Below, piece after piece: positions 42,245 to 63,199 of a stretch of DNA of 64,000 nt; within the stretch, counting starts at the first letter, position 1; every line of letters begins with the position of its first letter. The DNA comes from Candidatus Hadarchaeales archaeon. GTDB lineage: Archaea > Hadarchaeota > Hadarchaeia > Hadarchaeales > Hadarchaeaceae. The notes below the pieces were generated by a model, which had not been told where the DNA came from, made no database searches, and was given only the letters and a program-made list of their open reading frames with translations. Made by a program: the position numbers and the translations under genes. The stretch covers positions 33,820 to 97,819 of the forward strand of contig JAWCLG010000003.1 of the NCBI GenBank assembly GCA_038851075.1, in the 5' to 3' direction.

Positions 42245-44563
42245 TTAAATCGTCCACCTGACGTTGTCCACGTAGAAGGTCACTGAAGGCTTGACCACGG
42301 TTATGAGGAAAGGTCCAAATACCCTCGATAAATCCGCTGATCCAAATGTGGAACTCGGGATAACTATCTCCTGCCACGTGTTCGTATTGTCCCATCCTTG
42401 ATAACTCAGATAAGTCGTATATTTCCTGCCCCCAACATTTCCTATCGTCTGTATCTCTATCTTCAGGTCCTCCGGTGTCTTTACCCAGAACTTTAGATAG
42501 TTATAATCGGAGAAATCAACCGTGTAATCGGTGTTGTCACTGCGATAAAAGACTCCCCACCCTGCGTAGTTCACGTGTCGATTACCGTCCCAGTTAGCAC
42601 CGCTGGCCGTCTTGAAGCATTTTGTGCCCTCCGGAGGGGTCTCGCCCGCATAACTGTTGTCAAAAGACCCGGCAGGCCCACCCCAGTCAGCACCGCTCCA
42701 GACCCAGATAACCGAGCCGCTCGGGCAGACGATGGAATCGCTGTAAATTATCATGTCCTGAAAGATTCCTATTTTAAGCTTGAACTGAGCCGCGGCCGTC
42801 TTTCCATCAGATCCGGTCCCCACGATGTTTATGTAATGCGTTCCGAATTCGGCCCCTGGACCAGCGGTAATCGTGACACTCGTGGTAAACGGAGGCACGC
42901 CGAGACCGTTTTCAAATTCCACCGTCACACCTGAGGGAACATTTTCGGCTGACAGCGAAACTGTATTACTATAGCCACCGCTCGAGAACAATCTAAGTGT
43001 TAATCTGATGGTGCCTTCACCAGAGATGCTTCCGGAGCTCGGACTCGCCGACATGCTGAACTCAGATACCGCGCTGGCCGACCACGAATTCTTGAGAACA
43101 TAATACGCCTCTCTGGGTGTCTTTTCGTAGGTTCCGGTAGAGGTGCTAGTTATGCCCCACCACTCCTCGTTCATGTTATTTCTGCCGGCAACATGATCGT
43201 AGTAAGCCGCATTTGCCCATTGCCCGGTCTTGTCATGAACTCCGGAATTTCCTCCCTTCCACCACTCGTCGCACCACTCGAAAACCGTGCCACCCCAGCA
43301 TATTCCTCCCCCGGTGTGCAGCTCCGCCTCGATATCATTCCACATTGATATTATGTAACTGGCCTGAGAACTCTGATCCTCTTCCATATTTCGAATATCA
43401 AGCGCATCGCATCCCCACTCCGTCATTATAATCGGTTTGTTTGTTCTGGTTCTGTATTCCAAAAACAGTCCACCGAATGAAGAGCCTCTGTAGGAGTTAA
43501 TCCCCCAGGCATCGAGCGCTGACAGGGTGGCATCATCGGAACCTATCTCCGCGTTTCCAATATCGCCCATCCGATCGCCTTCTATTATTATAAACGGGTG
43601 ATTCGGGTCAATTGCCTTGGTGGCCAGCGCGGTCTCTCTGACCAAGGTGAACCATCCGCTCTTGTAAGGGGTGTTCATTGCAACCTCGTTACCGAAAGCC
43701 CACATGAGGACTGCAGGGTGATCCTTCCATTTGCTAACCATCGTTGTAAAAACCGTTTTAGCTGAATCCCTGCTTGACTGGTTTGAAAAGTTTATATTGT
43801 GATCGACCCAGTAGCCCATTATAACCTTCAGACCATTTCTGTAGGCCGCGTCCAGAGCCTCCTTGGTTGCATTTCTTGCGTCATAGGTCCTTATCGTGTT
43901 AGCACCCATCTCCCTTATCATGGGGAAATCTGACTCGTAAATCGCGGAGTTACTCCACCAGTTGTATCCTGCGCCCTGCCCGACAGGTGTGGGGGAGTAG
44001 CAGACGCCTTTAATCACAAATGGTTCTCCGTCCACAAGAATCTGGTAGCCGTTGATAGTCACCTCAGAACGCGGCATGTTCTCGACAAGCGTCACATCAT
44101 AAAAAGATTCCAGAACATCTCCGGTAAGCGAATAAACTATATCGACTCTCACCACAGTTCCGTTCTCGAACTGGGTCTGACGTCTAGCCGTCAACTTGGA
44201 GCCAGAGGTGAAAACGCCTGATCCTTCAGATACTGTGAGCTCATCTCCAGAGATACCAAAAGCGTTTCCAGAATTGTCGGTCAGCATTATCCTCAGTGAA
44301 CTTAGATTTACATTATCCCCTCCGGCGTGGAATATTTCAAGTACCACCTCCCCGGCAACTATAGCCGCACTTTCAAGCTCGATTTCCAGAGAAGGTGCTG
44401 AAACTGTAGTCACGTCTCTTCCCCGGTACGTGACCAAAAAAATGGCACCGATTACAACCGCTATGAGAACGGACCCAGCTGCAGCGGACTTCACTTTACC
44501 AGAAGGTCCGCCCTTTTTCAGTATAACGGTCTTACTTTGCTTTTTTCCAGCCAAAGCAACCAT
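42245..44563 (-). CDS. Signal-anchored clan GH-A (beta/alpha)8 glycosidase-like protein plus Ig/PKD-like domain plus C-terminal 'module A' beta-sandwich
   Basis: The N-terminal anchor is AAGSVLIAVVIGAIFLV. The catalytic-type motifs are FVIKGVCYSP...ANTIRTY, HPAVLMWAFGNEV (NE acid/base) and PIIMTEWGCDA (nucleophile Glu). The C-terminal ~160 aa are homologous to the C-termini of the 46241 and 49528 ORFs. Confidence 0.7.
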   Translation of the reverse strand: MVALAGKKQSKTVILKKGGPSGKVKSAAAGSVLIAVVIGAIFLVTYRGRDVTTVSAPSLEIELESAAIVAGEVVLEIFHAGGDNVNLSSLRIMLTDNSGNAFGISGDELTVSEGSGVFTSGSKLTARRQTQFENGTVVRVDIVYSLTGDVLESFYDVTLVENMPRSEVTINGYQILVDGEPFVIKGVCYSPTPVGQGAGYNWWSNSAIYESDFPMIREMGANTIRTYDARNATKEALDAAYRNGLKVIMGYWVDHNINFSNQSSRDSAKTVFTTMVSKWKDHPAVLMWAFGNEVAMNTPYKSGWFTLVRETALATKAIDPNHPFIIIEGDRMGDIGNAEIGSDDATLSALDAWGINSYRGSSFGGLFLEYRTRTNKPIIMTEWGCDALDIRNMEEDQSSQASYIISMWNDIEAELHTGGGICWGGTVFEWCDEWWKGGNSGVHDKTGQWANAAYYDHVAGRNNMNEEWWGITSTSTGTYEKTPREAYYVLKNSWSASAVSEFSMSASPSSGSISGEGTIRLTLRLFSSGGYSNTVSLSAENVPSGVTVEFENGLGVPPFTTSVTITAGPGAEFGTHYINIVGTGSDGKTAAAQFKLKIGIFQDMIIYSDSIVCPSGSVIWVWSGADWGGPAGSFDNSYAGETPPEGTKCFKTASGANWDGNRHVNYAGWGVFYRSDNTDYTVDFSDYNYLKFWVKTPEDLKIEIQTIGNVGGRKYTTYLSYQGWDNTNTWQEIVIPSSTFGSADLSRVFGPFLITVVKPSVTFYVDNVRWTI

Positions 44564-44617
44564 CTCCTAACTACCGCCGTGAACGCATTTATTGTTTTCC
44601 AATCTTAATGTACACTT

Positions 44618-46219
44618 TCATCTTCTGGTTTTGGCCCCAGGCCTGGCTCTACTGGCAGTTGATTTGAACAGTATCTTCTGCAGAACCCCTAAATACCACA
44701 GCAGCGCAAGAGCTGCAACTATCCCAACCGCCACCAGAACCGGCACGATGGGTGAAGGCCCACCTCTCAGCGAACCGGAAGTGGACAGCTCCTCAGACAC
44801 AATAACGTTAACTCCGTCTGAAGCCTCGAAATGATAGGAGTACGCACCAGGAGGAAGATCCACAGAAACCGCGTAGGTTTTTCCATCTGCATATCTTGTA
44901 TCTGACGGATTTTCCTCTGTCATATCGTAAGTAGAGCCATTCACTTGAACCCTTATGTACTCCGGCGCATCGTCATCAAGATCTGAATATGTGACGAGAA
45001 AAGTAAACGTGAGAGGGCCGCCCCTGTTATCCACTATCGCTCTGCCGTACCGGAGAACAGGACTGCTCGAAATTCCTCCCCACCTATCGCGGAGTTCACT
45101 GTACACCTTTCTCGGAACTATCACATCTGGACCCGAGCCGTTGTCCAATATCTTCATTATCCCCCACCACTCCTCGTTTAGAAATCCATCTGGACTGGAC
45201 GGGAAATCGTAACCTCCAGTATCGTGACTTGAAGAATTCCCGCACTTGTACCACTCGTCGGAATATGACATGAGCGATCCTCCGAACGTAATGCCTCTGT
45301 TATAATAATCCTGAATGCTGTCCCAGAGCGATGCATCGTAAAATGCCTGCGTATCCTCGTCCTCCTGACCGCTGATCTCGTCCCAGGCATCGATTCCGTA
45401 CTCGGAGACCCATACTGGCTTTGAGCTCTTTGACTGATATGCGCTGAAGACTCCTACGAAATCTGTGCCTCCCTGATAAACCGCAATGCCCCACGCGTCA
45501 AGGTAATCCATAGAAGCGTCATCGGAGCCAAGGGATGAATCACCTATCGTTGCCAGTTCCCCGTTCGATGTCGTGACCGGGTGATAATTGCTTCCCTCAA
45601 CCTCATATGCGGCTCTTGCCATCTCATTGAGCAGCGAATACCATGCCCTGAGGTTATCGTTGCCGTTCACCTGGAGATTTACCTCGTTGCCGATCGCCCA
45701 CATCAGTACCGCAGGGTGATCCTTATATCTGGACACGTAATCCCTGAACTCGCTTATGTAGTGTTCTCTGACGGTTGACGAGGATAAATCCAGGCTGGGG
45801 TTTATGGTGAATCCCATTATAACGTATATCGGGTGGTCTCCTTCATTATACGCCGCGTCCAGAAATTCTCTGCTGGTAACGTTGGTCCAAGTGCGAATTG
45901 TGTTGCACCCCATTACCCGAAGTGCCAGAAAATCCCTGTTGTAAATCTCAGGTTTGCCGTAAAAATCGAACGCCCATCCAGAACCTATCGGGATAGGGGA
46001 GTATCCAACTCCCTTCATGATAAAAGACTGCCCGTTCACCAGAAGCTGGTTCCCTGAGAACCTGACTGGACCGGTGCTCTGCGGCTTTGCTAAACCGTTA
46101 AGCGTCGGTGTCGAGGTGCCCACCTGTAGACCACATGCTAACTCAACACCGAATACGATAGCGAGGAAAATCCCCAATACTGCACCCAGAACTGCGATTT
46201 TTGACTTCATCGCAACCAT
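44618..46219 (-). CDS. Secreted clan GH-A glycosidase-like paralog with a C-terminal TM anchor
   Basis: It carries the same motif set as the upstream paralog: FIMKGVGYSP...CNTIRTW, HPAVLMWAIGNEV and KPVWVSEYGIDAW. It has an N-terminal signal peptide, a C-terminal beta-rich domain, then GGPSPIVPVLVAVGIVAALALLWYLGVL followed by a basic tail. Confidence 0.7.
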   Translation of the reverse strand: MVAMKSKIAVLGAVLGIFLAIVFGVELACGLQVGTSTPTLNGLAKPQSTGPVRFSGNQLLVNGQSFIMKGVGYSPIPIGSGWAFDFYGKPEIYNRDFLALRVMGCNTIRTWTNVTSREFLDAAYNEGDHPIYVIMGFTINPSLDLSSSTVREHYISEFRDYVSRYKDHPAVLMWAIGNEVNLQVNGNDNLRAWYSLLNEMARAAYEVEGSNYHPVTTSNGELATIGDSSLGSDDASMDYLDAWGIAVYQGGTDFVGVFSAYQSKSSKPVWVSEYGIDAWDEISGQEDEDTQAFYDASLWDSIQDYYNRGITFGGSLMSYSDEWYKCGNSSSHDTGGYDFPSSPDGFLNEEWWGIMKILDNGSGPDVIVPRKVYSELRDRWGGISSSPVLRYGRAIVDNRGGPLTFTFLVTYSDLDDDAPEYIRVQVNGSTYDMTEENPSDTRYADGKTYAVSVDLPPGAYSYHFEASDGVNVIVSEELSTSGSLRGGPSPIVPVLVAVGIVAALALLWYLGVLQKILFKSTASRARPGAKTRR

Positions 46220-46240: not shown

Positions 46241-47170
46241 CTAGCTCTTAACCCAATTAACCCAGTCAACATACCATTCAACATTAGGATTGCTGCCAGC
46301 CGTCGATATCATGAATGGACACCATATATACTGAAAGTCAACGTTCCTGAAGGCGCTCTTCGGGATAGTTATCTTCTCCCAGCCCCCGGTATTGGCCCAT
46401 CCATAGTTACCAATCCATACTTGGTTTGACTTTATACCTTTGTTGTCAGTAGTCAAATTCCAGCTCTGGAGCTCAACATGCAGATTCACGGGACTCTTTA
46501 CATAGAACTCTAAGGTGTCAACACCAGACAAGTCTATATAATGGGTTGCTGAGGGATCAATACCTCCTGGCATGCTGGAATTTGCCCCGACAAACACTCC
46601 CCATCCCGCGTACGCATTAGACTCCGGACCGTTTCGGGTGTACCAACAGGAAACTCCCTCAGGTATCCCGGAAACACCGGTATACTGCCCTTCAACATAA
46701 GGAGCGGTTAGACCGTACTCTCCCTCCTGTGGCCAAACAAATGCATCCACCTGAAGACCCAACTCCGGCAAAAGCCCGGCATCATTGAAAACCGCTATGT
46801 ACTCCCCAGCCGTACCGCCACCAACGGTTATGCTCCTTGAATAGGTATCACTCTGACCACCGCTAGATGTAACCGTCAATGTAACGGTATAGGTACCGGC
46901 AGAGAACTGGTGTGTTGGATTTCGGTCCGTGCTCGTGTTTCCGTCTCCAAAGTCCCATGACCATGAAACAATATCTCCGGTGGAAGTATCCGTGAACGCG
47001 ACATTCTGTCCAGCCTGCGGGTTAGAAGGGCTGTATGTGAAACTTGCATTCAGTCCACTTGGAGTACTTCCACCACCAGATGACAGAATCAAAGCAGCTG
47101 CGATAACTACAATTATAATTACCACGAGAATGATCACGACCGGAAGATTTAGCTTCCTTCCCCCACCCAT
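46241..47170 (-). CDS. Signal-anchored PKD-domain protein with C-terminal 'module A'
   Basis: The PKD signature is FTYSPSNPQAGQNVAFTDTSTGDIVSWSWDFGDGNTSTDRNPTHQFSAGTYTVTLTVT. The C-terminus carries AYAGWGVF...LEFYVKSP.NLHVELQ...GWEKITIPKSAF...WYVDWVNW. Confidence 0.65.
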   Translation of the reverse strand: MGGGRKLNLPVVIILVVIIIVVIAAALILSSGGGSTPSGLNASFTYSPSNPQAGQNVAFTDTSTGDIVSWSWDFGDGNTSTDRNPTHQFSAGTYTVTLTVTSSGGQSDTYSRSITVGGGTAGEYIAVFNDAGLLPELGLQVDAFVWPQEGEYGLTAPYVEGQYTGVSGIPEGVSCWYTRNGPESNAYAGWGVFVGANSSMPGGIDPSATHYIDLSGVDTLEFYVKSPVNLHVELQSWNLTTDNKGIKSNQVWIGNYGWANTGGWEKITIPKSAFRNVDFQYIWCPFMISTAGSNPNVEWYVDWVNWVKS

Positions 47171-47230: not shown

Positions 47231-47253
47231 TCAATTTTTGGTCTGATTTTGAA
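47231..47253 (-). promoter_or_regulatory. Copy of the locus-specific YCAAAATNAG direct-repeat motif (candidate operator)
   Basis: The minus strand reads TTCAAAATCAGACCAAAAATTGA, versus GTCAAAATTAGCCCAAAATTAGG at 56246. It lies 9 bp upstream of the candidate TATA box. Confidence 0.55.
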
Positions 47254-47308: not shown

Positions 47309-48466
47309 TTACGGCTCATAAAAAATGTCGTCCAGATAAATCGTGGCTCCACCAGGATTGCTGGTGCTATTTGTAACCCAGCAGAACCCTCCGATAACGT
47401 TGCTAAGATCCTTCCCGCTGAGATTTATTGTGTACTGTCTCCAGTTATCAGAAAGCACTATCACGCCGGTTGAGACTGCAGGATAAATTGAATCACTATA
47501 TTCTTTTCCAGTTTCGCGTATTCCTCCGACCTTAAACTCCGCCTTCTCACCGCCGTTCTTCCCTCTTGCCCAGAATGTCAGCTTTGTCGTTCCAGTAAGA
47601 TCCTGACCGGCATAGTCTCCCCAGTTTCCTTCGGGATATTGCCAGTATATGCCAGACCATACTGAAGTTCCAGACGGGGTATATACTATCTTTATGCAGG
47701 TGTCGCCAGAGTGGGGATTATCTGTGGAAGAGGGGTCGTACTGTATATCCCCGATGACACCCATCCACCCAGAGGGTATGAACATGTCCTCCACAGAGTA
47801 AGTGGGTAACGAACTTATGGTGATCCTTTTGATTGCATTATCCATCAATCCGGAATTATCTATCACAGTGAGAACCACGCTGTAACTTCCAGGAGCACTG
47901 TAGGTGTGAGTGACCTCTCTGCCGGACCCGGTTGTACCATCTCCGAAATTCCAGCTGTAGCCAACGATAGATCCGTCCTCGTCATTGGAATTCTCTCCGC
48001 TGAAGAACACCTCCTCCCCCACCATTGCTGTGGAAGGTCCTGAAATTCTGGCCTCCGGTGGCTTTTCACTCGTACTTACGGTTATTCTGAAGGAAGATGT
48101 GACCTGACCACCTTTTCCATCCCTGACGGTAACCGTGATGTTGTATACTCCTGCTGACGGGGGAGTCCATACCAGTGTGTTTTCTGTATTCGAACTTATC
48201 TGCGGATCCTGCGAACAGCTCCACGTATAGGATAAGGTGTCCCCATCGAAATCTATCGCTTTCACTCCAATTGTAACTGGGGTCCCCGCCTGCGCTCTGT
48301 TATCCGGAGGAGCCTGCACCGACTGTATCTGCGGCGCTCTGTTCGTTGAAAATGTCGGGCCAAAAAAGGCAAGAACGATTCCTATTGAAACACCAATTAC
48401 GATACTCAAAACGACTAACAAAAGATAATTTCTCTGGTGTGGCATACTTTCCATATACTCCGTCAA
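47309..48466 (-). CDS. Signal-anchored protein with two PKD/Ig-like domains and C-terminal 'module B'
   Basis: The PKD signatures are YTWSCSQDP... and VGYSWNFGDGTTGSGREVTHTYSAPGSYSVVLTVID. The C-terminal SGWMG...GDTCIKIVY...WSGIYWQYPEGNWG...KLTFWARGKNGGEKAEFKVGG...GGFCWV...ATIYLDDIFYE is homologous to the GH26 protein C-terminus. Confidence 0.65.
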   Translation of the reverse strand: MTEYMESMPHQRNYLLLVVLSIVIGVSIGIVLAFFGPTFSTNRAPQIQSVQAPPDNRAQAGTPVTIGVKAIDFDGDTLSYTWSCSQDPQISSNTENTLVWTPPSAGVYNITVTVRDGKGGQVTSSFRITVSTSEKPPEARISGPSTAMVGEEVFFSGENSNDEDGSIVGYSWNFGDGTTGSGREVTHTYSAPGSYSVVLTVIDNSGLMDNAIKRITISSLPTYSVEDMFIPSGWMGVIGDIQYDPSSTDNPHSGDTCIKIVYTPSGTSVWSGIYWQYPEGNWGDYAGQDLTGTTKLTFWARGKNGGEKAEFKVGGIRETGKEYSDSIYPAVSTGVIVLSDNWRQYTINLSGKDLSNVIGGFCWVTNSTSNPGGATIYLDDIFYEP

Positions 48467-48960: not shown

Positions 48961-49485
48961 ATGTGGATGAAGGAACTTTTTAACTCTAAATTCGAGGAAA
49001 TAAAACAGTTCCTAACCGAAACATTCAAGATCGCTGCAATTTTTTCAATCGTTTTCTTTTCAATTCATATATCCTTAATTATAGCACTCCACAACAATAA
49101 CCCTGCCTTTGTTGTTACATCAAACAGCATGTTACATCAAAACGAATCCTGGAGAGATTACTACACTGCGATGGGTATAGACACTTCAAATTTCCCCATC
49201 CAAGGAGGATTCGCACGTGGCGATATTTTATTGGCCGAAGGGGTTAACCCAAACAACATTGCGGTTGGTGACGTGATAATCTTTGAAGCCAGCGGCACCG
49301 AAATCGCGCACAGAGTTGTTGAGATAAGCTTCTCAGATAACAAACCTAAATTCAAAACAAAGGGCGATGCAAATATGTATTCTGCATGGTCTGAATCCTC
49401 AATTTTTCCAGAAAACATAAAGGGCAGAGTAGTTTTTGTACTCCCAAAGATTGGACATATCTTCCTTTGGTTAAGCGGAAAATAA
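48961..49485 (+). CDS. Signal peptidase I, archaeal/ER (S26B, Sec11/SipW) type
   Basis: N-terminal TM helix, then box B TSNSM (Ser), GDILL and GDVIIF, box D IAHRVV (His instead of Lys) and box E KGDAN. There is an unusual ~25-aa insertion between box B and GD. Confidence 0.75.
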   Translation: MWMKELFNSKFEEIKQFLTETFKIAAIFSIVFFSIHISLIIALHNNNPAFVVTSNSMLHQNESWRDYYTAMGIDTSNFPIQGGFARGDILLAEGVNPNNIAVGDVIIFEASGTEIAHRVVEISFSDNKPKFKTKGDANMYSAWSESSIFPENIKGRVVFVLPKIGHIFLWLSGK

Positions 49486-49527
49486 ATCAGCACGACTGAA
49501 TTCTTATGCGTTCGCAACTGCCCAAAC

Positions 49528-50252: not shown

Positions 50253-50753
50253 CTATTCCTGGTTGACGTCAAAGTACAGCGTTGACTGGAAGCCCTGCCC
50301 CACAGTATTGTAGTGGCCGACCTGTACCTTGAGTATAATGTAGCTGTTTCCACCGATGCTGAAGGTTCCATGAGACTGACCACCACTGTAGAGATCAGTT
50401 CCATCTAGTTTCCACACGTTCATCCATACTCTATCACCGCCGCCTGAGACGAACAGATTCGACATCACTGAGCTTCCGGTGTTCCTCAATTTGACATAGC
50501 AGGTCGCACTGGTTCCCTGGGGGATCTGCACGCTTGTTATCTCCTGGGTTGCATTCTGGTCGCTGTAGAATTTGACTTCTATAGCAGTGGGTGGCGCAAC
50601 AACCGTAATGCCAAGCGTTCCTTGACCAACTACCACGGATGCGGCCACATAACTGCCAGCTGCTGCAATTGCTATAAGGCTAACAAGAAGTGCTCCCACG
50701 ATCGCCCGAGAGGTGCCCCTTGCGCTGCTTTCCAGCAACCATTCATCACTCAT
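50253..50753 (-). CDS. Small signal-anchored beta-rich protein of unknown family
   Basis: 166 aa with a strong GGAGGT Shine-Dalgarno 8-10 nt upstream. After the TM segment, the motif SYVAASVVVGQGTLGITV is shared with the 49528 ORF (SYTAASIIVGRGILTVNV). Confidence 0.45.
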   Translation of the reverse strand: MSDEWLLESSARGTSRAIVGALLVSLIAIAAAGSYVAASVVVGQGTLGITVVAPPTAIEVKFYSDQNATQEITSVQIPQGTSATCYVKLRNTGSSVMSNLFVSGGGDRVWMNVWKLDGTDLYSGGQSHGTFSIGGNSYIILKVQVGHYNTVGQGFQSTLYFDVNQE

Positions 50754-50818: not shown

Positions 50819-50880
50819 CCCTAATTTTGAGCTAATTTTGACAATTTTGGTTAATTTTGAAATAGTTTTGACGATTTCGA
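50819..50880 (-). promoter_or_regulatory. Phased array of about 5 YCAAAATTA half-sites (11-bp period) upstream of the 50753 start
   Basis: The minus strand reads CGTCAAAACTAT TTCAAAATTAA CCAAAATT GTCAAAATTAG CTCAAAATTAG GG. The last 24 nt differ at one position from GTCAAAATTAGCCCAAAATTAGGG at 56247..56270. Confidence 0.6.
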
Positions 50881-56244: not shown

Positions 56245-56270
56245 TGGTCAAAATTAGCCCAAAATTAGGG
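56245..56270 (+). promoter_or_regulatory. Locus motif copy 1 (candidate operator) in the regulator/GH26 divergent region
   Basis: TGGTCAAAATTAGCCCAAAATTAGGG contains two YCAAAATTAG units 11 bp apart. Confidence 0.6.
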
Positions 56271-56286
56271 CGTATTTACCAAAAAC

Positions 56287-56308
56287 TGGTCAAAATTAGC
56301 CCAAAATT
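56287..56308 (+). promoter_or_regulatory. Locus motif copy 2, exact 22-bp direct repeat of copy 1
   Basis: TGGTCAAAATTAGCCCAAAATT is identical to 56245..56266. The start-to-start spacing is 42 bp. Confidence 0.6.
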
Positions 56309-56395: not shown

Positions 56396-57976
56396 TTGAG
56401 GATTATCGTGGTAAACAAAAAAATCGTCTTGGCTACCGGGCTTTCGATAGCCGCGGTGATTATCGCTGTCTTCTTCATTCTTAACTTAGAAAAAAGGTGG
56501 TGGATCGAGGAAACCCGAGAAGATCAGGTTTACTTCGGTGCTTTCGTGCCCGGTGTTGAGGCATCAATTAAACTTCTTGATCAGCTTGAGAGCACTATCG
56601 GACAAAAGCTAACGATAATAAACACATTCCTGCCATCCAGCGCTGATTTTCCGGCCGAGTTCTGCGAACGCATAATCTACCACGGAGCAATACCCATGAT
56701 AACTTGGATGCCCCAGCCCAGAGACCCGAGCACCGAACACGGCAGAGTGCTGGACAGCATCGCCGGGGGCAACTGGGACAGTTATATAAGAAAATGGGCC
56801 GTGGATGCAAGAAACTTCGGTAAACCGGTGTACATTAGATGGGGGCATGAGTTCAACGGATACTGGTACCCCTGGAGCGTCCCAGCGAACGAAAACAGCC
56901 CCGATAAATTTGTGGCGGCATGGAAGCACGTTCACGACATATTTGCCAGAGAGGGTGCAACAAACGTCCAGTGGGTATGGTGCCCGTACCTGCGCAGCAA
57001 CCCTGATGAGGCGTGGAACGATCCACTGCTCGCATATCCGGGTGACGAGTACGTGGACTGGATCGGAATCGATGAGTACAACTGGGGATCAAGCTTCATA
57101 TGGAGCAACTGGCTTGAGTTCAGCGAGATCTTCTCGAACAAGGTGAGGATATTCAGCACGCACTTTCCGACAAAACCGATAATGATCGCCGAGGTCGGGT
57201 GTACCGAGGAAAATGAGCTACCGGGTCAGACGAAAGCCCAGTGGGTGAGAAACATGCTGGACTCTCTAAAGTGGATGACTCCAATACGTGCTGTTGTTTG
57301 GTTCAACTCATTTAAGGAAACAGACTGGCGCATGGAGTCGAGCGAAAGTTCTCTGGATGCTTTTAAAGAGATTTTTAGGGATGCGTACATAGCAGACGAT
57401 GCGAGAGGTCTCTGGAAGATCCCTGATAACTTCAGATCTGACCCGAACATATGGCCCACTTCAACAGTAAGGGCGGAGATGCCGTTCTACGTTTACGGAG
57501 ACAACGGTGGAAACTTTGCTGCCTCTGGGTGGATGGGGGACTACCAATCCATGACCCTTTCAGAGTACTGTACGGAAACCCCAGCTGTAGGAGACACCTG
57601 CATGAAGGTAAAGTACGACATAACAACCAGCAGGAAGGTCTGGGCAGGAATCTACTGGCAGAACCCGCCCAACAACTGGGGTAACGAAGATGGAGGATAT
57701 GACCTCTCAGATGCAACAAAGTTAGTATTCTGGGCCAGGGGCGAAAACGGAGGGGAAATTGTGAACTTCAAAACAGGCGGTATAAGCGGCAGTTACCCGG
57801 ACTCGGCTTTCGTCGTGCTCGGAACAATAACCCTGTCAAAAGAATGGCGAGAGTATGAGATTGACCTCAGGGGACACGATCTGTCATACATATCCGGTGG
57901 GTTTGTTTGGGTCGCCAAACAGGACCAGAACCCCAAGGGGTGCACGATATACCTAGACGAGATAAGATATGAATAA
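56396..57976 (+). CDS. Signal-anchored GH26-like glycosidase (mannanase/lichenase family) plus C-terminal 'module B'
   Basis: GH26 blocks are present: YIRWGHEFNGYWYPW (acid/base Glu), YPGDEYVDWIGIDEYNW and PIMIAEVGC (nucleophile Glu). The C-terminal ~160 aa are homologous to the 47309 ORF C-terminus. The start may be the GTG at 56408. Confidence 0.8.
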   Translation: MRIIVVNKKIVLATGLSIAAVIIAVFFILNLEKRWWIEETREDQVYFGAFVPGVEASIKLLDQLESTIGQKLTIINTFLPSSADFPAEFCERIIYHGAIPMITWMPQPRDPSTEHGRVLDSIAGGNWDSYIRKWAVDARNFGKPVYIRWGHEFNGYWYPWSVPANENSPDKFVAAWKHVHDIFAREGATNVQWVWCPYLRSNPDEAWNDPLLAYPGDEYVDWIGIDEYNWGSSFIWSNWLEFSEIFSNKVRIFSTHFPTKPIMIAEVGCTEENELPGQTKAQWVRNMLDSLKWMTPIRAVVWFNSFKETDWRMESSESSLDAFKEIFRDAYIADDARGLWKIPDNFRSDPNIWPTSTVRAEMPFYVYGDNGGNFAASGWMGDYQSMTLSEYCTETPAVGDTCMKVKYDITTSRKVWAGIYWQNPPNNWGNEDGGYDLSDATKLVFWARGENGGEIVNFKTGGISGSYPDSAFVVLGTITLSKEWREYEIDLRGHDLSYISGGFVWVAKQDQNPKGCTIYLDEIRYE

Positions 57977-58016
57977 CACCACAAGTATTAAAAGAAAACC
58001 CGATGAAGGAGAAGAG

Positions 58017-59411
58017 ATGAAAATGATGATGATTTCCTTCAGGAAAGAGAACAGGGGAGTATCAAAAACACTCCCTGTGATAATTATTATTGCAATAGCG
58101 GTGTTCGGAATTCTTATTTATAGAAGCCTGGGCGGCGGTGCCGAAATGCGCTGGTGGACCGTTCACTCAGGCGCATGGGGGCACTCTGAATGGCACACGT
58201 ATTCCCTTGAAGAATACGACAAGCTTTACGGACACCTTATTGAAAGAACCGACTATGACAATCCAAACTTTAAATCTTCAATACTCAACGCAATGCTCGC
58301 TGGTGACCCGCCGGAGATATGGCATTCCTGGGGGGGGACCCAGCTGAAGAACTTTGTTGAGATGGGGTACGTTGAAGACCTGACCGACCTGATGAATGAG
58401 AGCTGGGCACTGGATATACTTCCCCTCGAAAGCCGCGATAAGCTGATATGGAACTCCACCTGGAACGGAAAAAACTATGGATTTCCATACAGCGTTGGAG
58501 TTATCCAGATATACGTTAACAAAGACCTGTTCGATTCGTGCGGCATAGATTTGCCATCAGTTGAAAACGATGAAACATGGACATGGAGTCAGTTCATTGA
58601 CGCGATACAGACACTTAAAAATCACGGGATAACTCCAATAACGATCGCGGGGACTGAGACATGGCAGCTCTCATTCTGGTATATGTACCTTGTAGACCGA
58701 ATTGGAGGACCGGAGTACTTCACCAAAACGCTGAACCGCTATCCGGGATACTCCTTTGAAGACAATGTGTTCTTGGAGGCTGCCAGAAAGTGCAGGGAGC
58801 TCGTGGAGATGGGTGCATTCCAGCAGACATTCATGGCGGACGGATACGACAAGGCCATAACGATGTTCTCCCAGGGACAGGCCGCAATGTACCTTCAGGG
58901 CTCCTGGGAGATAAAAACTATGAAAACTTACTATAATCAGAACCTGAACGTTGACGTTATCAGGTTCCCCCTCATGGACAACAGCGCCAACGGCGACCCG
59001 CACTCAATTGTTGTGAACGTTCAGGACTACTTCTGCGTCTCATCAACTACGAAGAACAAGGAGGCAGCGTTCAACTTCATAAGGCTGCTTGGCAGAGAGG
59101 ACGTGATTAGAAAATTTGTTGAAAAGGCCGGGGATATATGCGTGTTCGACTCCAGAGTCGGGGGAGGAGTAGACATTCCATCCTCGCTCTACGAGCCGGT
59201 GATCAACAAGCAAATCGAAGAGTTCAACAACTCCACCCATACACAGATGCCCTGGGATCAGTACTCTCCGCAGCAGTTCGCACAGAAGCACCTAGAGTGC
59301 ATGAAGAGGCTCTTCGATGGCACGTGGACTCCAGAGAAGGTGGCCCAAGAGCATGAAACAATAGCCCAATCCCTGAAAACGAGTGGTTACCTGCCGGTCT
59401 CATATGGATGA
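58017..59411 (+). CDS. ABC transporter sugar-binding protein (solute-binding family 1), signal-anchored
   Basis: An N-terminal anchor is followed by a typical family-1 SBP layout (PEIWHSWGG...NGKNYGFPYS...AAMYLQGSWE). I chose the start at MKMMM (58017). Confidence 0.85.
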   Translation: MKMMMISFRKENRGVSKTLPVIIIIAIAVFGILIYRSLGGGAEMRWWTVHSGAWGHSEWHTYSLEEYDKLYGHLIERTDYDNPNFKSSILNAMLAGDPPEIWHSWGGTQLKNFVEMGYVEDLTDLMNESWALDILPLESRDKLIWNSTWNGKNYGFPYSVGVIQIYVNKDLFDSCGIDLPSVENDETWTWSQFIDAIQTLKNHGITPITIAGTETWQLSFWYMYLVDRIGGPEYFTKTLNRYPGYSFEDNVFLEAARKCRELVEMGAFQQTFMADGYDKAITMFSQGQAAMYLQGSWEIKTMKTYYNQNLNVDVIRFPLMDNSANGDPHSIVVNVQDYFCVSSTTKNKEAAFNFIRLLGREDVIRKFVEKAGDICVFDSRVGGGVDIPSSLYEPVINKQIEEFNNSTHTQMPWDQYSPQQFAQKHLECMKRLFDGTWTPEKVAQEHETIAQSLKTSGYLPVSYG

Positions 59412-59429: not shown

Positions 59430-61193
59430 GTGAAGAGAAACTTTTTACCCTACATCTTCATTTTACCTGCACTTGTCCTATTTCTGATGTTCTTCATATT
59501 CCCGAATGCCTACGTTTTCTATTTGTCGATGCACGAACTTGGTCCGAGCGGTGAGGCGCAGGAAAACTGCCTTACCAGCATTTACCCTCGATACCTGAAT
59601 GAGAACAACTTCTATCGGGCAGAGTTTGATATAAAATCCGGAATTTTTTGCCTGATGAGGATATACGAAGGAAACGAAGAAACTCTCATTTCTGACGGTT
59701 TTTCATCTGGTAGGGTCGGAACCTGGTACAAATTAAGGGTTGAGGTGATAAAAAAGGACAACGTCGATACGATAAGATCTTGGATAATCGGAATTGAGAA
59801 CGGATATAAAATCTTTGAAAACTCGTGCGCTCCGCTGAACCACGGCGGACTTGCCCTGTCAGCATATTTCAACAGGGATTTTACTGTGGTCTGGGACGAT
59901 CTCCGGATGATGGAATATCTCGAAGATAAGCCGAATGTGGCTTTTGGCGAAGAAACAAGTTCAGACATTGAAAACTGGGAAAGGAGCAGAACCATTGAAA
60001 TCGAGGGAACTGGTAAAGCACTGGAAAACTATCCGATCCAGTTCGATATTGAATGGCAGACAGACATGAGGGCTGACTTTGGAGATATCCGGTTTACGGG
60101 GGAAAATGGAGCCGAATTTCTGGACTACTGGATCGAGAGGTACTCGCGCGGTCAGCTTGCAACCGTCTGGGTGAAAATCCCATTATTGCCGGAGAACGGT
60201 ACCGCAATCAAAGTTCACTACGGCAACCCTGAGGCAACTTCATCAAGCGAGATTCGGAAAACTTTTGTATTCGGGGACGATTTCGAAGACGCCGCCTGGA
60301 CGAACGCCCACTTTGAGATGTCCGAATGTGAAGGGTGCTCGCAAGTGGCTGAAAACGGAGAATATGTGATGATGGGCAATGCTGGGTCTCTTGTGTTCAC
60401 CAATATAAACCTCCCAGAAATTCCTGAAAACATTGTTTTGGAGGTAAACGTGAAGTTGAAGAAGGTAGGCACAAGAGAATTTGGTCTTTCGTTCGTCGGG
60501 GCAAAAAATTTCTTGGAGCTATTCTCAGACAACATGTTTCTGATGTCTCTGCTTCTGGTCGCAGGCATAGCGATACAGTCCATAGTGGTGCAGGTCCCCG
60601 CGGGTCTGGGGCTCGCTCTTGCGCTGAGGAACATCAGGGGATCCCGCACTTTCCTAACCATATTCTTCCTCCCGATGACAATATCCCTCGTCACACTCTG
60701 CCTTATGTGGAAGTACCTCATATTCAGTCCTCAGGGCATTCTTAACTCAACCTTTGGGATGAGCCTCGACCCGACCAAAGATGCGTTCACGCTCTTCCTC
60801 GCGGTGAACATCATCGCGGACTGGATATATATTGGACTTTACACTGTGATGTTCAACAGCGCCATGAAAAGCATACCAAAATCTGTTTTTGACGCCGCCA
60901 AGGTCGATGGGCTCTCAGGATTCAAAACCCTTAGAAAGATAGTGATACCTGCCCTGAAGAACATCATTCTGGTATCGATAATAATGTGCATCTCCGGGAC
61001 TTTCAAAACATTTGACACGTGGTGGGTGCTGGGAGGAGGTCCGACCGCCCCGCTTCATCTGCCCTCAACCTATCTGGTGACAAAAATAGGGTCCGGTCTA
61101 ATAGGATATGCCTCAGCCATAGCTGTGATCAGTTTCTTCATATGTCTGGTCATAGTGCTAATCCAGCTGAAGGCGATGAAGGTGAAGGTATGA
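59430..61193 (+). CDS. ABC sugar permease (MalF/UgpA type) with a ~330-aa extracytoplasmic DUF2341/LamG-like insertion after TM1
   Basis: TM1 is YIFILPALVLFLMFFIFPNAYVFYLSM. The insertion contains ADFGDIRFTGENGAEFLDYWIERYSRGQLATVWVKIPLLPENGTAIKVHYGNPEA, a DUF2341 signature. The normal permease core then resumes at FVGAKNFLELF and carries the EAA-type loop AAKVDGLSGFKTLRKIVIP. Confidence 0.85.
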   Translation: MKRNFLPYIFILPALVLFLMFFIFPNAYVFYLSMHELGPSGEAQENCLTSIYPRYLNENNFYRAEFDIKSGIFCLMRIYEGNEETLISDGFSSGRVGTWYKLRVEVIKKDNVDTIRSWIIGIENGYKIFENSCAPLNHGGLALSAYFNRDFTVVWDDLRMMEYLEDKPNVAFGEETSSDIENWERSRTIEIEGTGKALENYPIQFDIEWQTDMRADFGDIRFTGENGAEFLDYWIERYSRGQLATVWVKIPLLPENGTAIKVHYGNPEATSSSEIRKTFVFGDDFEDAAWTNAHFEMSECEGCSQVAENGEYVMMGNAGSLVFTNINLPEIPENIVLEVNVKLKKVGTREFGLSFVGAKNFLELFSDNMFLMSLLLVAGIAIQSIVVQVPAGLGLALALRNIRGSRTFLTIFFLPMTISLVTLCLMWKYLIFSPQGILNSTFGMSLDPTKDAFTLFLAVNIIADWIYIGLYTVMFNSAMKSIPKSVFDAAKVDGLSGFKTLRKIVIPALKNIILVSIIMCISGTFKTFDTWWVLGGGPTAPLHLPSTYLVTKIGSGLIGYASAIAVISFFICLVIVLIQLKAMKVKV

Positions 61194-62077
61194 AAACCGA
61201 ATTCGAGAAGGAATGGCACGGTAAAAAGATACTGAAATACGCCGTCCTGGTGATTTTCGCCGCGATAATACTTGTTCCCATAATTATGCTCGTGGTGGAA
61301 TCACTGAAAACCGGTGAAGAGTTCGTCAAGAATCCCCTGTCCCTTCCATCAAATCCGCAGTTCTCAAACTACATCGACGCCTGGAGAGGTGAGACCACAA
61401 CAATGGTCCCGGGACAAAAAATCAATCTCGGGATAGGAATCGAAGATGGTTTCATAAACAGTCTCATAGTGGTGATTGCTTCCGTTTTTATAATTCTGGG
61501 CATAGGGCCGCTCGCCGCATACGCACTTTCATCCCTTGACCTGAGAGGAAGACGAGCATATTTCTACGTTTTTATGAGCGGCATGTTCATCGGAGGACCT
61601 GCGCTGCCTGCCCTCTGGATGCTGACAAACATGCTCGGCATTTACAACACATATCTGGCGCTGATACTCCCATATGTAGCCGGGGCCCTGCCGTTCACCA
61701 TCCTGATAATGTGGTCGTATTTTAAATCCACCTCAAGGTCCCTGTACGAGGCCGCAAAGATAGACGGTCTCTCCCAGTTCAAAACTTATTACAAAGTGAT
61801 GCTTCCAACCGCCATGCCCGCGCTCATGACGGTAGCCATACTGCAGACAATATGGATATGGAACGAATTTTTGCTATCGCTTGTGCTAATACAGAACCCC
61901 AACTTTTACACAATCCCCAGGGCGGTTTACTTCTTCTCAACCGCGGCCACCAAAGGACCGGGCTGGGGGATATTCTTCGCCGGAGTTCTGCTGGCAGCCC
62001 TTCCCACAGTGATAGCATACTTGCTGTTCTCTGAACAGATAAAGAGAGGCATGAGCATGGAGGTCTTCAAGGGCTGA
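61190..62077 (+). CDS. ABC sugar permease (MalG/UgpE type)
   Basis: The ATG at 61190 overlaps the upstream stop (ATGA). The EAA loop EAAKIDGLSQFKTYYKVMLP is present. I rejected the track ORF's 57-aa N-terminal extension. Confidence 0.9.
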   Translation: MKTEFEKEWHGKKILKYAVLVIFAAIILVPIIMLVVESLKTGEEFVKNPLSLPSNPQFSNYIDAWRGETTTMVPGQKINLGIGIEDGFINSLIVVIASVFIILGIGPLAAYALSSLDLRGRRAYFYVFMSGMFIGGPALPALWMLTNMLGIYNTYLALILPYVAGALPFTILIMWSYFKSTSRSLYEAAKIDGLSQFKTYYKVMLPTAMPALMTVAILQTIWIWNEFLLSLVLIQNPNFYTIPRAVYFFSTAATKGPGWGIFFAGVLLAALPTVIAYLLFSEQIKRGMSMEVFKG

Positions 62078-62089
62078 GCGAAGGAACGC

Positions 62090-63199
62090 TCAGGCCACCA
62101 TCACTCCTCCGGGCTCATCAAAAAACCTGACGCATTCCATACTGAGGGTCAGATAAACCGTGCTTCCAACGTCCTTCCCGAAATCGGGGCGAACCACTGC
62201 AGTCATCTTCGTCCCACCAGCGTCCAGCTCCAGATATTTAACGTTGCCCATCTGCTGAGAGAAATAAACCTTGGCCGGCATGGCCCCCCTCATCCTCTTT
62301 TCGCTCACCTGAATATGCTCCGGTCTTATTCCGATGGTTATCTTCGAGCCTGAGATGCTTCTCTTTAACGCGCGCCACAGCGGCAAAGGTATCAACAGAC
62401 TGAAATCACCAGTCGCCTCAAAGAACACTTTTCCTCTCCTTCTTACCAGATCTCCGGTCACGAAATTTATTTTTGGACTGCCTATGAACTCCGCTATAAA
62501 CTTGTTAGCGGGACAATCATATATTGTCTTTGGCCTGTCCAGCTGGAGCAGCTTTCCGTCCTTAAGCACCGCAACCCTGTCAGCAAGTACCATCGCCTCG
62601 GCCTGATCATGTGTTACGTACACGGTTGTTGTCTTCAACTTATTATGCAACTTCTTGAGCTCTGTTCTCATGGAAACCCTAAACAACGCGTCCAGGTTTG
62701 AAAGCGGCTCATCCATAAGATAAATGGATGGGTTTCTGACGATCGCCCTCCCAAGAGCCACCCTCTGTTGCTGCCCTCCGCTCAGCGCAGTGGGCCTTCT
62801 TCTAAGCAGGTGCGTTATCTGAAGTATTTCTGCGGTCTTTGTCACCCTCTCAACTATTTCTTCCTTTGGGACTTTGTCGACCTGAAGACAGAGGGCCATG
62901 TTATCAAAAACCGTCATGTGCGGGTAAAGGGCGTACTCCTGAAAAACCATTGCCACGTTTCTTTCCTTGGGCTCGAGATCGTTGACGCACTTTCCGTTGA
63001 ACAGTATTCTGCCCTTGGTTGGCTTTTCTAGACCGGCAATCAACCTCAATGCGGTGGTCTTGCCGCAGCCTGACGGGCCGAGAAAAACCATGAACTCTCT
63101 ATCCTTTATTTCTAGATCTAGGTTATCGACAGCCTTCACGCTGCCGAACTCCTTGCACAGATGTTCAAGCTCAACTTCTACCATTTTTGACCATTCCAT
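62090..63199 (-). CDS. ABC transporter ATP-binding protein (MalK/UgpC type with C-terminal TOBE-like domain)
   Basis: Walker A GPSGCGKTT, signature LSGGQQQRVALGRA, Walker B IYLMDEPLS. The start is possibly M6 (63184). Confidence 0.92.
   Translation of the reverse strand: MEWSKMVEVELEHLCKEFGSVKAVDNLDLEIKDREFMVFLGPSGCGKTTALRLIAGLEKPTKGRILFNGKCVNDLEPKERNVAMVFQEYALYPHMTVFDNMALCLQVDKVPKEEIVERVTKTAEILQITHLLRRRPTALSGGQQQRVALGRAIVRNPSIYLMDEPLSNLDALFRVSMRTELKKLHNKLKTTTVYVTHDQAEAMVLADRVAVLKDGKLLQLDRPKTIYDCPANKFIAEFIGSPKINFVTGDLVRRRGKVFFEATGDFSLLIPLPLWRALKRSISGSKITIGIRPEHIQVSEKRMRGAMPAKVYFSQQMGNVKYLELDAGGTKMTAVVRPDFGKDVGSTVYLTLSMECVRFFDEPGGVMVA

What the first reader, a model, noticed from the sequence alone, without database searches (positions are those of the whole stretch)
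42245..63199. Archaeal polysaccharide-utilisation-like locus assembled from unusual parts
Fifteen adjacent genes form a coherent outside-to-inside glycan pathway. There are three membrane-anchored glycosidase-like proteins: two clan GH-A paralogs and one GH26-like. Four non-catalytic anchored PKD/CBM-like proteins could act as surface glycan binders. The locus also holds a signal peptidase I, a family-1 solute-binding protein with two permeases and a MalK-type ATPase, a cytoplasmic GH94 phosphorylase and a dedicated regulator. The logic parallels bacterial PULs and ABC-type glycan loci. However, the binding modules, the permease and the regulator are not the standard families. I do not know of a described archaeal system with this composition. 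GH26 (which includes lichenases) together with GH94 points toward a beta-glucan, but the substrate is not established.
Basis: partly seen in the sequence, partly recalled or inferred. Interest (0 to 1): 0.8.

Follow-up and report, generated by a model that had tools for sequence, protein, structure and literature searches.

The report
Archaeal beta-glucan utilisation gene cluster
An uncultured Hadarchaeales archaeon carries a conserved 21-kb gene cluster that most likely binds, cuts, imports and phosphorolyses beta-glucans, and it is built partly from unannotated parts: a new sugar-binding domain family, a lectin-fold gene regulator and a transporter subunit with a large outer domain.

Summary
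Fifteen adjacent genes at 42245-63199 have the stated domain make-up, in a Candidatus Hadarchaeales MAG. The cluster is syntenic in at least four other Hadarchaeales lineages at about 45-76% protein identity.

The substrate call can be sharpened:
- The GH26 domain is lichenase-type, with both catalytic Glu conserved.
- The two GH-A paralogs are closest to GH158 endo-beta-1,3-glucanases, again with both Glu conserved.
- The unannotated C-terminal domains form one superfamily. Its model resembles CBM30 and CBM11, both beta-glucan binders.
- The GH94 keeps its catalytic Asp and phosphate His but has a non-canonical +1 subsite.

The regulator is a winged-helix plus L-type-lectin fusion that keeps the lectin metal and sugar motifs. 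It is found only in this locus type. Phased CAAAATT boxes lie in two promoter regions of the locus and upstream of the regulator gene in relatives.

One permease carries a 330-residue DUF2341/LamG-like outer insert. Only one other 50%-identity cluster out of 1.84 billion representatives shares it.

This is an ABC-type glycan utilisation locus, not a SusC/D PUL. I rate it a new variant of a known kind, built from several unannotated modules. Substrate and regulation are inferred, not shown.

The parts
42245..44563 (-). 772-aa anchored GH158-like glycosidase. It has an N-terminal TM, a beta domain, a GH-A catalytic domain (E293 acid/base, E382 nucleophile), an Ig-like repeat and a C-terminal type A CBM-like domain (res 602-771).
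44618..46219 (-). 533-aa GH158-like glycosidase (E179, E273). It has an N-terminal signal segment, a beta domain (res 403-481) similar to part of a xanthanase, and a C-terminal TM anchor.
46241..47170 (-). 309-aa anchored non-catalytic protein: PKD plus type A CBM-like domain.
47309..48466 (-). 385-aa anchored non-catalytic protein: 2x PKD plus type B CBM-like domain.
48961..49485 (+). Archaeal-type signal peptidase I (174 aa) with SNSM, AHRV and GDAN motifs.
   Evidence: ortholog in L004-L006
49528..50169 (-). 213-aa anchored protein consisting of a type A CBM-like domain only.
50253..50753 (-). 166-aa anchored beta-rich protein of unknown fold. Its N-terminal region resembles that of the 213-aa protein.
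50823..50870 (-). Array of phased CAAAATT boxes just upstream of the 166-aa gene promoter. Candidate operator.
50936..53365 (-). Cytoplasmic GH94 phosphorylase (809 aa). Catalytic ADWND Asp and phosphate His are conserved. The +1 subsite is non-canonical (R, F, A in place of CgCBP E649, Y653, N667).
53669..54571 (+). 300-aa anchored non-catalytic protein: PKD plus a divergent CBM-like domain.
54857..56098 (-). Regulator (413 aa): winged HTH (res 1-125) plus L-type lectin domain (res about 190-385) with conserved metal and sugar motifs.
56246..56308 (+). Two perfect 21-bp repeats (GGTCAAAATTAGCCCAAAATT), each holding two CAAAATT boxes 11 bp apart. They lie between the regulator and the GH26 operon. 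Candidate operator.
56396..57976 (+). 526-aa anchored GH26 lichenase-type enzyme (E152, E266) plus a type B CBM-like domain (res 365-526).
57969..59411 (+). Membrane-anchored family-1 solute-binding protein (CUT1 type).
59430..61193 (+). ABC permease (587 aa) with a 330-residue extracytoplasmic insert (59532-60524) between TM1 and TM2. The insert is DUF2341 flanked by two halves of a LamG-like jelly roll.
61190..62077 (+). Second ABC permease (295 aa).
62090..63199 (-). MalK-type ATPase with OB_MalK/TOBE regulatory domains.

Best explanation
This is a conserved Hadarchaeales glycan-utilisation locus of the ABC-transporter type. Its most likely substrates are beta-glucans containing beta-1,3 linkages: mixed-linkage beta-1,3/1,4-glucan and/or beta-1,3-glucan.

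Proposed mechanism:
1. Membrane-tethered endo-glucanases cut the polymer. These are one GH26 lichenase-type enzyme and two GH158-like enzymes.
2. Four tethered non-catalytic PKD/CBM-like proteins hold the polymer at the cell surface.
3. A tethered family-1 binding protein captures the oligosaccharides, and a CUT1 ABC importer takes them in. One permease of that importer carries a LamG/DUF2341 ectodomain.
4. In the cytoplasm a GH94 enzyme phosphorolyses a beta-glucoside bond to give glucose-1-phosphate.
5. A winged-helix plus L-type-lectin protein senses a sugar and binds phased CAAAATT boxes upstream of locus promoters.

Shown here: the gene content, the catalytic residues, the fold of the binding domain and of the lectin domain, the synteny and the repeated DNA motif. 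Inferred: the substrate, the direction of regulation, and the roles of the permease insert and of the signal peptidase.
For: Surface enzymes:
- The GH26 domain matches C. thermocellum lichenase CtLic26A at E 3e-44 over residues 48-326, with both catalytic Glu aligned. Beta-1,3-xylanase and mannanases match only at E 1e-6 or weaker.
- For both GH-A paralogs the best solved relative is GH158 (E 1.5e-15), with acid/base and nucleophile Glu aligned.

Binding domains:
- The type B domain model (pLDDT 90) is closest to CBM30 and to the CBM11 of CtLic26A-Cel5E, which was solved with a mixed-linkage glucan ligand.
- Type A is homologous to type B (hhalign probability 96%).
- Type A recurs on GH158-like enzymes elsewhere.

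Cytoplasmic and transport parts:
- GH94 matches over its full length, with catalytic Asp and phosphate His conserved.
- A complete CUT1 importer is present.

Synteny:
- The same gene set is found in L004-L007, L003 and L008/L009.
- An Omnitrophota operon links a type B protein with a GH158-like enzyme and a CUT1 transporter.

Regulator:
- It has an L-type lectin fold with invariant lectin motifs.
- It is found only in this locus type.
- Paired CAAAATT boxes occur only in two intergenic regions of the locus within the 64-kb window, where none is expected by chance. The motif is conserved upstream of the regulator gene in L004-L007.
Against: - There are no biochemical or expression data.
- The match to GH158 covers only about 175 of about 330 catalytic residues, so specificity could differ.
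- GH94 is about equally close to cellobiose and chitobiose phosphorylases (486 against 465 bits), and its +1 subsite is unlike canonical cellobiose phosphorylases.
- The closest solved relatives of the binding protein bind xylo- and chito-oligosaccharides.
- The locus has no beta-glucosidase or second phosphorylase to finish off mixed-linkage products.
- The regulator model is only moderately confident (pLDDT 69).
- The operator is inferred from sequence alone.
- The sequence comes from a MAG.
Confidence: 0.7

Rival explanations
1. A chitin or chito-oligosaccharide locus. GH94 would act as an N,N'-diacetylchitobiose phosphorylase and the transporter would import chitobiose.
For: GH94 scores nearly as well against Vibrio chitobiose phosphorylase (2.9e-138) as against cellobiose phosphorylase. 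The best NCBIfam hit of the binding protein is the chitobiose SBP NgcE, and NagB1/2 are among its PDB hits. The GH94 +1 subsite is not of the cellobiose phosphorylase type.
Against: The 15 genes contain no GH18, GH19 or GH20 enzyme and no deacetylase. The three surface enzymes are lichenase-type GH26 and GH158-like. The NgcE hit is far below its cut-off (84 against 399 bits). The CBM-like fold is closest to beta-glucan binders.
Confidence: 0.08
2. A locus for another beta-linked glycan, such as beta-mannan, beta-1,3-xylan or xylan.
For: GH26 also contains mannanases and beta-1,3-xylanases. The closest solved relatives of the binding protein bind xylo-oligosaccharides. The GH-A paralogs also weakly match GH2 families.
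Against: The GH26 match to lichenase is about 38 orders of magnitude stronger than its match to xylanase or mannanase. No GH94 activity on xylo- or manno-oligosaccharides was met in the papers and PDB entries consulted.
Confidence: 0.07
3. The surface proteins remodel the cell's own envelope or a biofilm exopolysaccharide. The signal peptidase would process the two small anchored proteins into a matrix or fibre, in the manner of SipW and TasA. Feeding would not be the main purpose.
For: The GH-A paralogs weakly hit GH72 glucanosyltransferase. The signal peptidase and the two small anchored proteins form a trio conserved in L004-L006. The two small proteins share an N-terminal motif. The 772-aa enzyme has a weak archaeal pilin-like N-terminal hit.
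Against: An importer, a cytoplasmic phosphorylase and a sugar-sensor-like regulator are conserved in the same block, which fits catabolism. The GH72 hits are marginal compared with GH158. No glycosyltransferase or exporter is present in the locus.
Confidence: 0.08
4. The genes are neighbours without forming a functional unit, or the arrangement is a MAG assembly artefact.
For: The genes lie on both strands in at least six transcription units. GC content is lower at 48-56 kb. A tRNA-like gene sits at the left border.
Against: The same set is found together in several independent assemblies at 45-76% protein identity. Two of the promoter regions share one motif.
Confidence: 0.02

Closest known systems
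ABC-transporter-dependent glycan utilisation loci of Gram-positive bacteria, for example the Ruminiclostridium cellulolyticum seven-gene cellodextrin cluster (PMC5663094; details from my own knowledge)
   Same: A binding protein, two permeases, a cytoplasmic GH94 phosphorylase and a dedicated regulator are clustered with extracellular glucanases.
   Different: The host is archaeal. The enzymes and binders are membrane-tethered by TM segments rather than carried on cellulosomes or cell-wall anchors. The regulator is a winged-helix plus lectin fusion, not a two-component, LacI or ROK system. The binding modules are unclassified. One permease carries an ectodomain.
Bacteroides beta(1,3)-glucan PUL with surface GH158 and surface glycan-binding proteins (PMC7157763; GH158 mechanism in PMC13195107)
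   Same: A surface endo-glucanase of the GH158 kind works with non-catalytic surface glycan binders. The outside-to-inside logic is the same.
   Different: There is no SusC/SusD pair and no outer membrane. Import is by an ABC system. Cytoplasmic breakdown is by phosphorolysis (GH94) rather than by a periplasmic GH3. The GH158 similarity is partial.
Clostridium thermocellum Lic26A-Cel5E (CelH): GH26 lichenase plus CBM11 (PDB 2bv9, 1v0a, 6r3m)
   Same: The GH26 catalytic domain is homologous (E 3e-44) with the same catalytic Glu pair. The appended beta-jelly-roll resembles CBM11 in fold.
   Different: The appended domain is not a sequence member of CBM11 (Pfam E 0.09 at best). There is no GH5 module and no dockerin. 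The protein has an N-terminal membrane anchor.
Pyrococcus furiosus cellobiose/beta-glucoside ABC uptake system (Koning et al. 2001, cited in PMC10267330) with laminarinase and beta-glucosidase (from my own knowledge)
   Same: It is an archaeal precedent for beta-glucan breakdown coupled to high-affinity ABC uptake.
   Different: That system uses an oligopeptide-type (Opp-like) transporter, GH16 and GH1 hydrolases. It has no GH94, no tethered CBM proteins and no lectin-type regulator.
Omnitrophota operon in L011 (GCA_053996315.1)
   Same: A tandem type B domain protein lies between a GH2_C-like enzyme and a GH158-like enzyme, next to a CUT1 binding protein and two permeases.
   Different: It is bacterial. 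Its regulators are ROK and LacI. No GH26 or GH94 is visible in the fetched stretch.

Membership tests
GH26 (lichenase subgroup) | Significant match to the GH26 catalytic domain | tested here: met
   PF02156 gives 40.1 bits against a cut-off of 20.2. CtLic26A matches at E 3e-44 over residues 48-326.
GH26 (lichenase subgroup) | Catalytic Glu pair (CtLic26A E109 acid/base, E222 nucleophile; residue roles from my own knowledge) | tested here: met
   E152 in WGHEFNG and E266 in IMIAEVG align to chain positions 109 and 222.
GH26 (lichenase subgroup) | Hydrolysis of beta-1,3/1,4-glucan | not testable with these tools
   Needs an enzyme assay.
GH158 | Sequence similarity to characterised GH158 across the catalytic barrel | tested here: inconclusive
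   GH158(Pro) 9oro is the best PDB hit for both paralogs (E 1.5e-15), and BuGH158 6pal also hits. The aligned stretch is only about 175 residues at roughly 35-40% identity (estimated by eye from the printed alignments). No CAZy or dbCAN model was available.
GH158 | Acid/base Glu143 and nucleophile Glu229 of GH158(Pro) (PMC13195107) | tested here: met
   E293/E382 (772 aa) and E179/E273 (533 aa) align to these residues. The chain numbering is offset by 8.
GH158 | Endo-beta-1,3-glucanase activity | not testable with these tools
   Needs an enzyme assay.
GH94 | Supersandwich plus (alpha/alpha)6 catalytic domains | tested here: met
   PF06165 at 9e-70 and PF17167 at 1e-108. Full-length match to CtCBP at 1.9e-144.
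GH94 | Catalytic Asp (CgCBP D490) and phosphate His (H666) | tested here: met
   The ADWND and IFCH motifs align. Positions are D510 and H664 in ORF numbering.
Cellobiose phosphorylase (EC 2.4.1.20) within GH94 | Canonical +1 subsite residues E649, Y653 and N667 (CgCBP numbering; roles from my own knowledge) | tested here: not met
   These positions are R647, F651 and A665 here. The protein is therefore not filed as a canonical cellobiose phosphorylase.
Archaeal/ER-type signal peptidase I | Family model above cut-off, and Ser/His/Asp boxes | tested here: met
   TIGR02228 gives 64.2 bits against 51.85. SNSM (S56), AHRV (H117) and GDAN (D136) are present. Box assignment is from my own knowledge.
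CUT1-type carbohydrate ABC importer | SBP_bac_1 protein, two BPD_transp_1 permeases and a MalK-like ATPase with a regulatory domain | tested here: met
Bacteroidota PUL (sensu stricto) | SusC-like TonB-dependent transporter and SusD-like protein | tested here: not met
   None of the 15 proteins has such domains. The locus works like a PUL but is not one.
L-type (legume-like) lectin domain | Family HMM at gathering score | tested here: not met
   PF18483 gives 67.9-69.9 bits against a cut-off of 78.3.
L-type (legume-like) lectin domain | Lectin beta-sandwich fold | tested here: met
   Foldseek top hits are peanut lectin 2pel (2e-9), the M. jannaschii legume lectin domain 7elv (TMt 0.71), Emp47p, VIP36 and ERGIC-53. 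The model's core pLDDT is 70-93.
L-type (legume-like) lectin domain | Metal-ligand motif E-x-D-x3-N-x4-D-P-x3-H and the sugar-binding Asp and Gly loops | tested here: met
   E286, D288, N292, D297 and H302, together with GGDG (D251) and GGNLG, are invariant in 15 homologs. The comparison with peanut lectin numbering is from memory.
CBM11 / CBM30 | Sequence membership | tested here: not met
   No Pfam hit at threshold; the best is CBM_11 at E 0.092. There is no PDB sequence hit.
CBM11 / CBM30 | Beta-jelly-roll CBM fold | tested here: met
   Model pLDDT 90.2. CBM30 1wmx matches at E 3e-7 with TM 0.66, and CBM11 6r3m and 1v0a match with TM about 0.6.
CBM11 / CBM30 | Glycan binding | not testable with these tools
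   Needs binding assays.

The most novel reading that the evidence does not exclude
The winged-helix plus L-type-lectin protein would be a new class of sugar-sensing transcription factor. A metal-dependent lectin fold would serve as the cytoplasmic sensor, and the protein would control a Hadarchaeales-specific glycan utilisation system through phased CAAAATT boxes. That system would also introduce a large, unclassified CBM superfamily shared with Omnitrophota and an ABC permease with its own glycan-binding ectodomain. Together these would amount to an archaeal counterpart of the PUL paradigm built from parts not yet in any family database.
Probability: 0.45. Interest if true: 0.75.

Novelty: new variant of a known kind. 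Interest (0 to 1): 0.62.

Why it matters
Hadarchaeota are widespread, uncultured subsurface and hot-spring archaea, and their carbon sources are inferred mostly from gene counts. One metatranscriptome study reports that they express extracellular CAZymes (PMC9979476). This locus gives a concrete, conserved and testable pathway for polymer use.

It also yields several leads for experiment:
- An unannotated CBM-like superfamily with more than 1,600 detectable members.
- A GH158-like enzyme group in archaea.
- An archaeal GH94 with an altered acceptor site. A 2023 comparative review does not list GH94 among the cellulase-related CAZy families that have biochemically characterised archaeal members (PMC10267330).
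- A candidate lectin-fold transcription factor with a predicted operator.
- A rare permease ectodomain.

If the locus is confirmed, it would guide enrichment of Hadarchaeales on beta-glucans.

Tried and rejected
- Exact-sequence look-ups of window proteins for genomic context failed. Context came from homologs instead.
- The genome-contig scan with GH94 gave one locus only. The metagenome scan with the regulator alignment gave one 1.4-kb fragment, so no co-occurrence statistics were possible.
- Profile searches of the type A and type B domains against PDB sequences found nothing.
- The chimeric type A + type B search returned only type B proteins in its top 120. Type A relatives had to be recovered from the first search.
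- Papers consulted for GH94 specificity residues did not list them, so the residue roles rest on memory.
- The N-terminal wHTH has no significant PDB sequence relative.
- Rfam found no RNA family in the 53.4-53.7 kb intergenic region or in the GC-rich spacer of L008.
- Intergenic DNA is not alignable between loci apart from the box motif.
- ARAGORN did not confirm the tRNA-like Rfam hit at the left border.
- A laminaribiose phosphorylase assignment was considered and rejected, because PsLBP matches only at 1e-45 against 1e-144 for the CBP/ChBP group.
- A SusC/D-type PUL was rejected.

Full report
**Observation**

The region 42245-63199 contains 15 ORFs on both strands.

Pfam and NCBIfam give the following:
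- Two paralogous clan GH-A proteins of 772 and 533 aa, with weak GH2_C/GH72 hits.
- PKD-domain proteins of 309, 385 and 300 aa.
- Anchored proteins of 213 and 166 aa with no family hit.
- An archaeal signal peptidase I (TIGR02228, above its cut-off).
- A full GH94 (E 1e-108).
- An HTH plus legume-lectin-like protein.
- A GH26 protein.
- An SBP_bac_1 protein and two BPD_transp_1 permeases, one of them carrying DUF2341.
- A MalK-type ATPase.

A hydropathy scan shows one N-terminal hydrophobic segment in each predicted external protein. The 533-aa enzyme also has a C-terminal TM. Several proteins have Gly/Ser-rich stalks after the anchor.

The rest of the window encodes split RpoA, EF-1alpha and topoisomerase VI. 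The locus proteins are 100% identical to NCBI entries of a Candidatus Hadarchaeales MAG.

**What the enzymes are**

- GH26. The domain aligns over residues 48-326 with C. thermocellum lichenase CtLic26A (E 3e-44), and both catalytic Glu are conserved (E152, E266). Beta-1,3-xylanase and mannanases score 1e-6 or worse.
- GH-A paralogs. The best solved relative of both is GH158 (9oro, E 1.5e-15; BuGH158 6pal also hits). The residues aligned to the published acid/base Glu143 and nucleophile Glu229 are Glu in both proteins. The alignment covers only about half of the barrel, so I call them GH158-like.
- GH94. It aligns end to end with cellobiose phosphorylases (1.9e-144) and almost as well with chitobiose phosphorylase (2.9e-138). 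Laminaribiose phosphorylase matches far less well (1e-45). The catalytic ADWND Asp, the RGYRD motif and the phosphate His are conserved. However, the positions equivalent to CgCBP E649, Y653 and N667 are R, F and A. From memory, E649 contacts the anomeric end of the acceptor glucose. The change could reflect a different or longer acceptor. That is inference.

**The binding modules**

All-against-all BLAST defines two C-terminal domain types:
- Type A occurs in the 772-, 309- and 213-aa proteins.
- Type B occurs in the GH26 protein and the 385-aa protein (49% identical). The C-terminus of the 300-aa protein is a distant relative.

Neither type has a Pfam hit at threshold or a PDB sequence relative.

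A database search found 1,656 proteins with the domain. The top hits are about 380-aa secreted Omnitrophota proteins made of two tandem type B domains, all unannotated.

An AlphaFold model of the GH26 type B domain (25-sequence alignment, pLDDT 90.2) is a beta-jelly roll. Its closest solved folds are CBM30 and the CBM11 of CtLic26A-Cel5E, followed by CBM29, CBM4, CBM16 and CBM22.

Type A is homologous to type B (hhalign probability 96%, E 1.6e-9 over 158 columns). Type A also recurs, sometimes in tandem, on GH158-like enzymes from other organisms.

In an Omnitrophota genome the tandem type B protein sits between a GH2_C-like enzyme and a GH158-like enzyme, downstream of a CUT1 binding protein and two permeases.

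Taken together, a glycan-binding role is well supported at the level of fold and context. Binding itself is untested.

**Synteny**

Regulator homologs (44-56% identical) number only about 15 full-length clusters, and the only named ones are Hadarchaeales. Their contexts in three NCBI MAGs and one Logan assembly show the same set: two permeases, the binding protein, GH26, MalK, a signal-peptidase-like ORF, two small anchored proteins, the regulator, GH94, PKD-GH-A, PKD, GH-A, PKD/CBM30 and GH-A.

tblastn shows relatives of all 15 window proteins across these loci, at 29-76% identity; for the 385- and 300-aa PKD/CBM-like proteins only shared domains on other proteins are matched.

A Hadesarchaea contig carries GH94 (76% identical), then an anchored repeat protein ending in a type A domain, then a PKD-GH-A gene. 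A further lineage (L008/L009) has PKD, GH-A, GH26, binding protein, insert-bearing permease, permease and MalK, in the window's order.

Elsewhere, isolated GH-A genes also occur.

**The regulator**

The 15-sequence alignment shows invariant GGDG, GGNLG, E-x-D-x3-N-x4-D-P-x3-H and STGG..NWH motifs.

From memory, the spacing of the E/D/N/D/H set equals that of the Mn/Ca ligands of peanut lectin, and the GGDG Asp corresponds to the conserved sugar-binding Asp.

The AlphaFold model has a confident winged-helix domain (residues 1-125) and a moderately confident C-terminal sandwich. Foldseek's best matches to it are peanut lectin, the Methanocaldococcus jannaschii legume-lectin domain, Emp47p, VIP36 and ERGIC-53. 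The protein has no signal or TM segment.

I infer a cytoplasmic sugar sensor. I found no description of such a fusion, but I did not run a dedicated literature search for it.

**Candidate operator**

Between the regulator gene and the GH26 operon lie two perfect 21-bp repeats, GGTCAAAATTAGCCCAAAATT. Each contains two CAAAATT boxes 11 bp apart. A third site, with five phased boxes, lies directly upstream of the promoter region of the 166-aa gene.

Matches expected by chance are 0.00-0.08. Paired boxes occur nowhere else in the 64 kb. CAAAATTAATCCAAAATT is present upstream of the regulator gene in L004-L007, although the surrounding DNA cannot be aligned.

The boxes lie upstream of the TATA-like elements, which would suit an activator. 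That reading is inference.

**The permease insert**

The 587-aa permease has a 330-residue segment between TM1 and the conserved start of the permease core. The segment is absent from the 341-aa orthologs in L004-L007.

In an exhaustive search of 1.84 billion representatives, only one protein matched the whole insert. It is a 593-aa permease, 52% identical, located in the syntenic locus L008. All other hits are giant surface proteins with repeated DUF2341/LamG-like units.

Comparison with one such protein (P0274) suggests the insert is the C-terminal part of a LamG-like jelly roll, then DUF2341, then the N-terminal part of the jelly roll. Such a piece would be an out-of-phase excerpt of a tandem repeat that can close into one domain (inference). 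Its role is unknown. It might bind glycan or dock the binding protein.

**Comparison and novelty**

In logic the locus matches ABC-type glycan utilisation loci and the Bacteroides GH158 beta-1,3-glucan PUL, but it lacks SusC/D.

Archaeal precedents for ABC-coupled beta-glucoside use exist, for example Pyrococcus (cited in PMC10267330). Hadarchaeota have been reported to express extracellular CAZymes (PMC9979476). No paper retrieved describes this locus.

I therefore rate it a new variant of a known kind. Three of its components are unannotated or rare.

**Rivals**

The rivals are a chitin locus, a locus for another beta-glycan, envelope or biofilm remodelling, and chance adjacency. Together they carry about 0.25 probability. 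The strongest residual doubt concerns the exact substrate of GH94 and of the transporter.

Noticed in passing
window 48961-50753; L004 8147-9731: The signal peptidase I gene and the two small anchored proteins (213 and 166 aa) form a trio that is conserved in related loci. The two small proteins share an N-terminal motif, SY[VT]AAS..VG.G.L, just after the hydrophobic segment. This recalls dedicated SipW-type peptidases encoded next to their substrates.
   Followed up: partly
window 44069-44416 (residues 50-165 of the 772-aa enzyme): The N-terminal beta domain after the anchor gives a weak hit to the archaeal type IV pilin N-terminal family (PF07790, E 0.041). A pilin-like (class III) signal on a glycosidase would recall the Sulfolobus bindosome. 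The evidence is weak.
   Followed up: no
window 44765-45067 (residues 403-481 of the 533-aa enzyme): A roughly 80-residue beta domain matches residues 834-912 of the Paenibacillus xanthanase 6fhj (E 7.8e-10). Its function is unknown.
   Followed up: no
P0147-P0266; L011 8001-9137: Candidatus Omnitrophota encode a very large family of about 380-aa secreted proteins made of two tandem type B domains. None has a Pfam annotation. In one genome the gene sits inside a glycan operon.
   Followed up: partly
window 42102-42200: Rfam reports a 99-nt tRNA-like hit (39 bits, possibly intron-containing) exactly at the left border of the locus. ARAGORN does not call it. GC content drops to 0.40-0.46 across 48-56 kb, against about 0.50 elsewhere.
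   Followed up: partly
window 33102-35567: An 821-aa ORF fuses aldehyde:ferredoxin oxidoreductase (AFOR_N and AFOR_C) to a C-terminal OMP-decarboxylase/HUMPS-family domain. I believe this fusion is unusual.
   Followed up: no
window 27975-29831: An acetyl-CoA hydrolase/transferase is fused to a C-terminal GNAT acetyltransferase domain (618 aa).
   Followed up: no
L008 2400-2720; window 53440-53620: These intergenic stretches are richer in G+C than the other spacers of the locus and appear to contain inverted repeats. One lies upstream of GH26 in L008 and the other between GH94 and the 300-aa gene in the window. Neither has an Rfam match.
   Followed up: partly
window 47234-47251: A degenerate copy of the paired-box motif (CAAAATCAGACCAAAAAT, 2 mismatches) lies 64-81 nt upstream of the 309-aa PKD gene. 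It could be a third, weaker operator.
   Followed up: no
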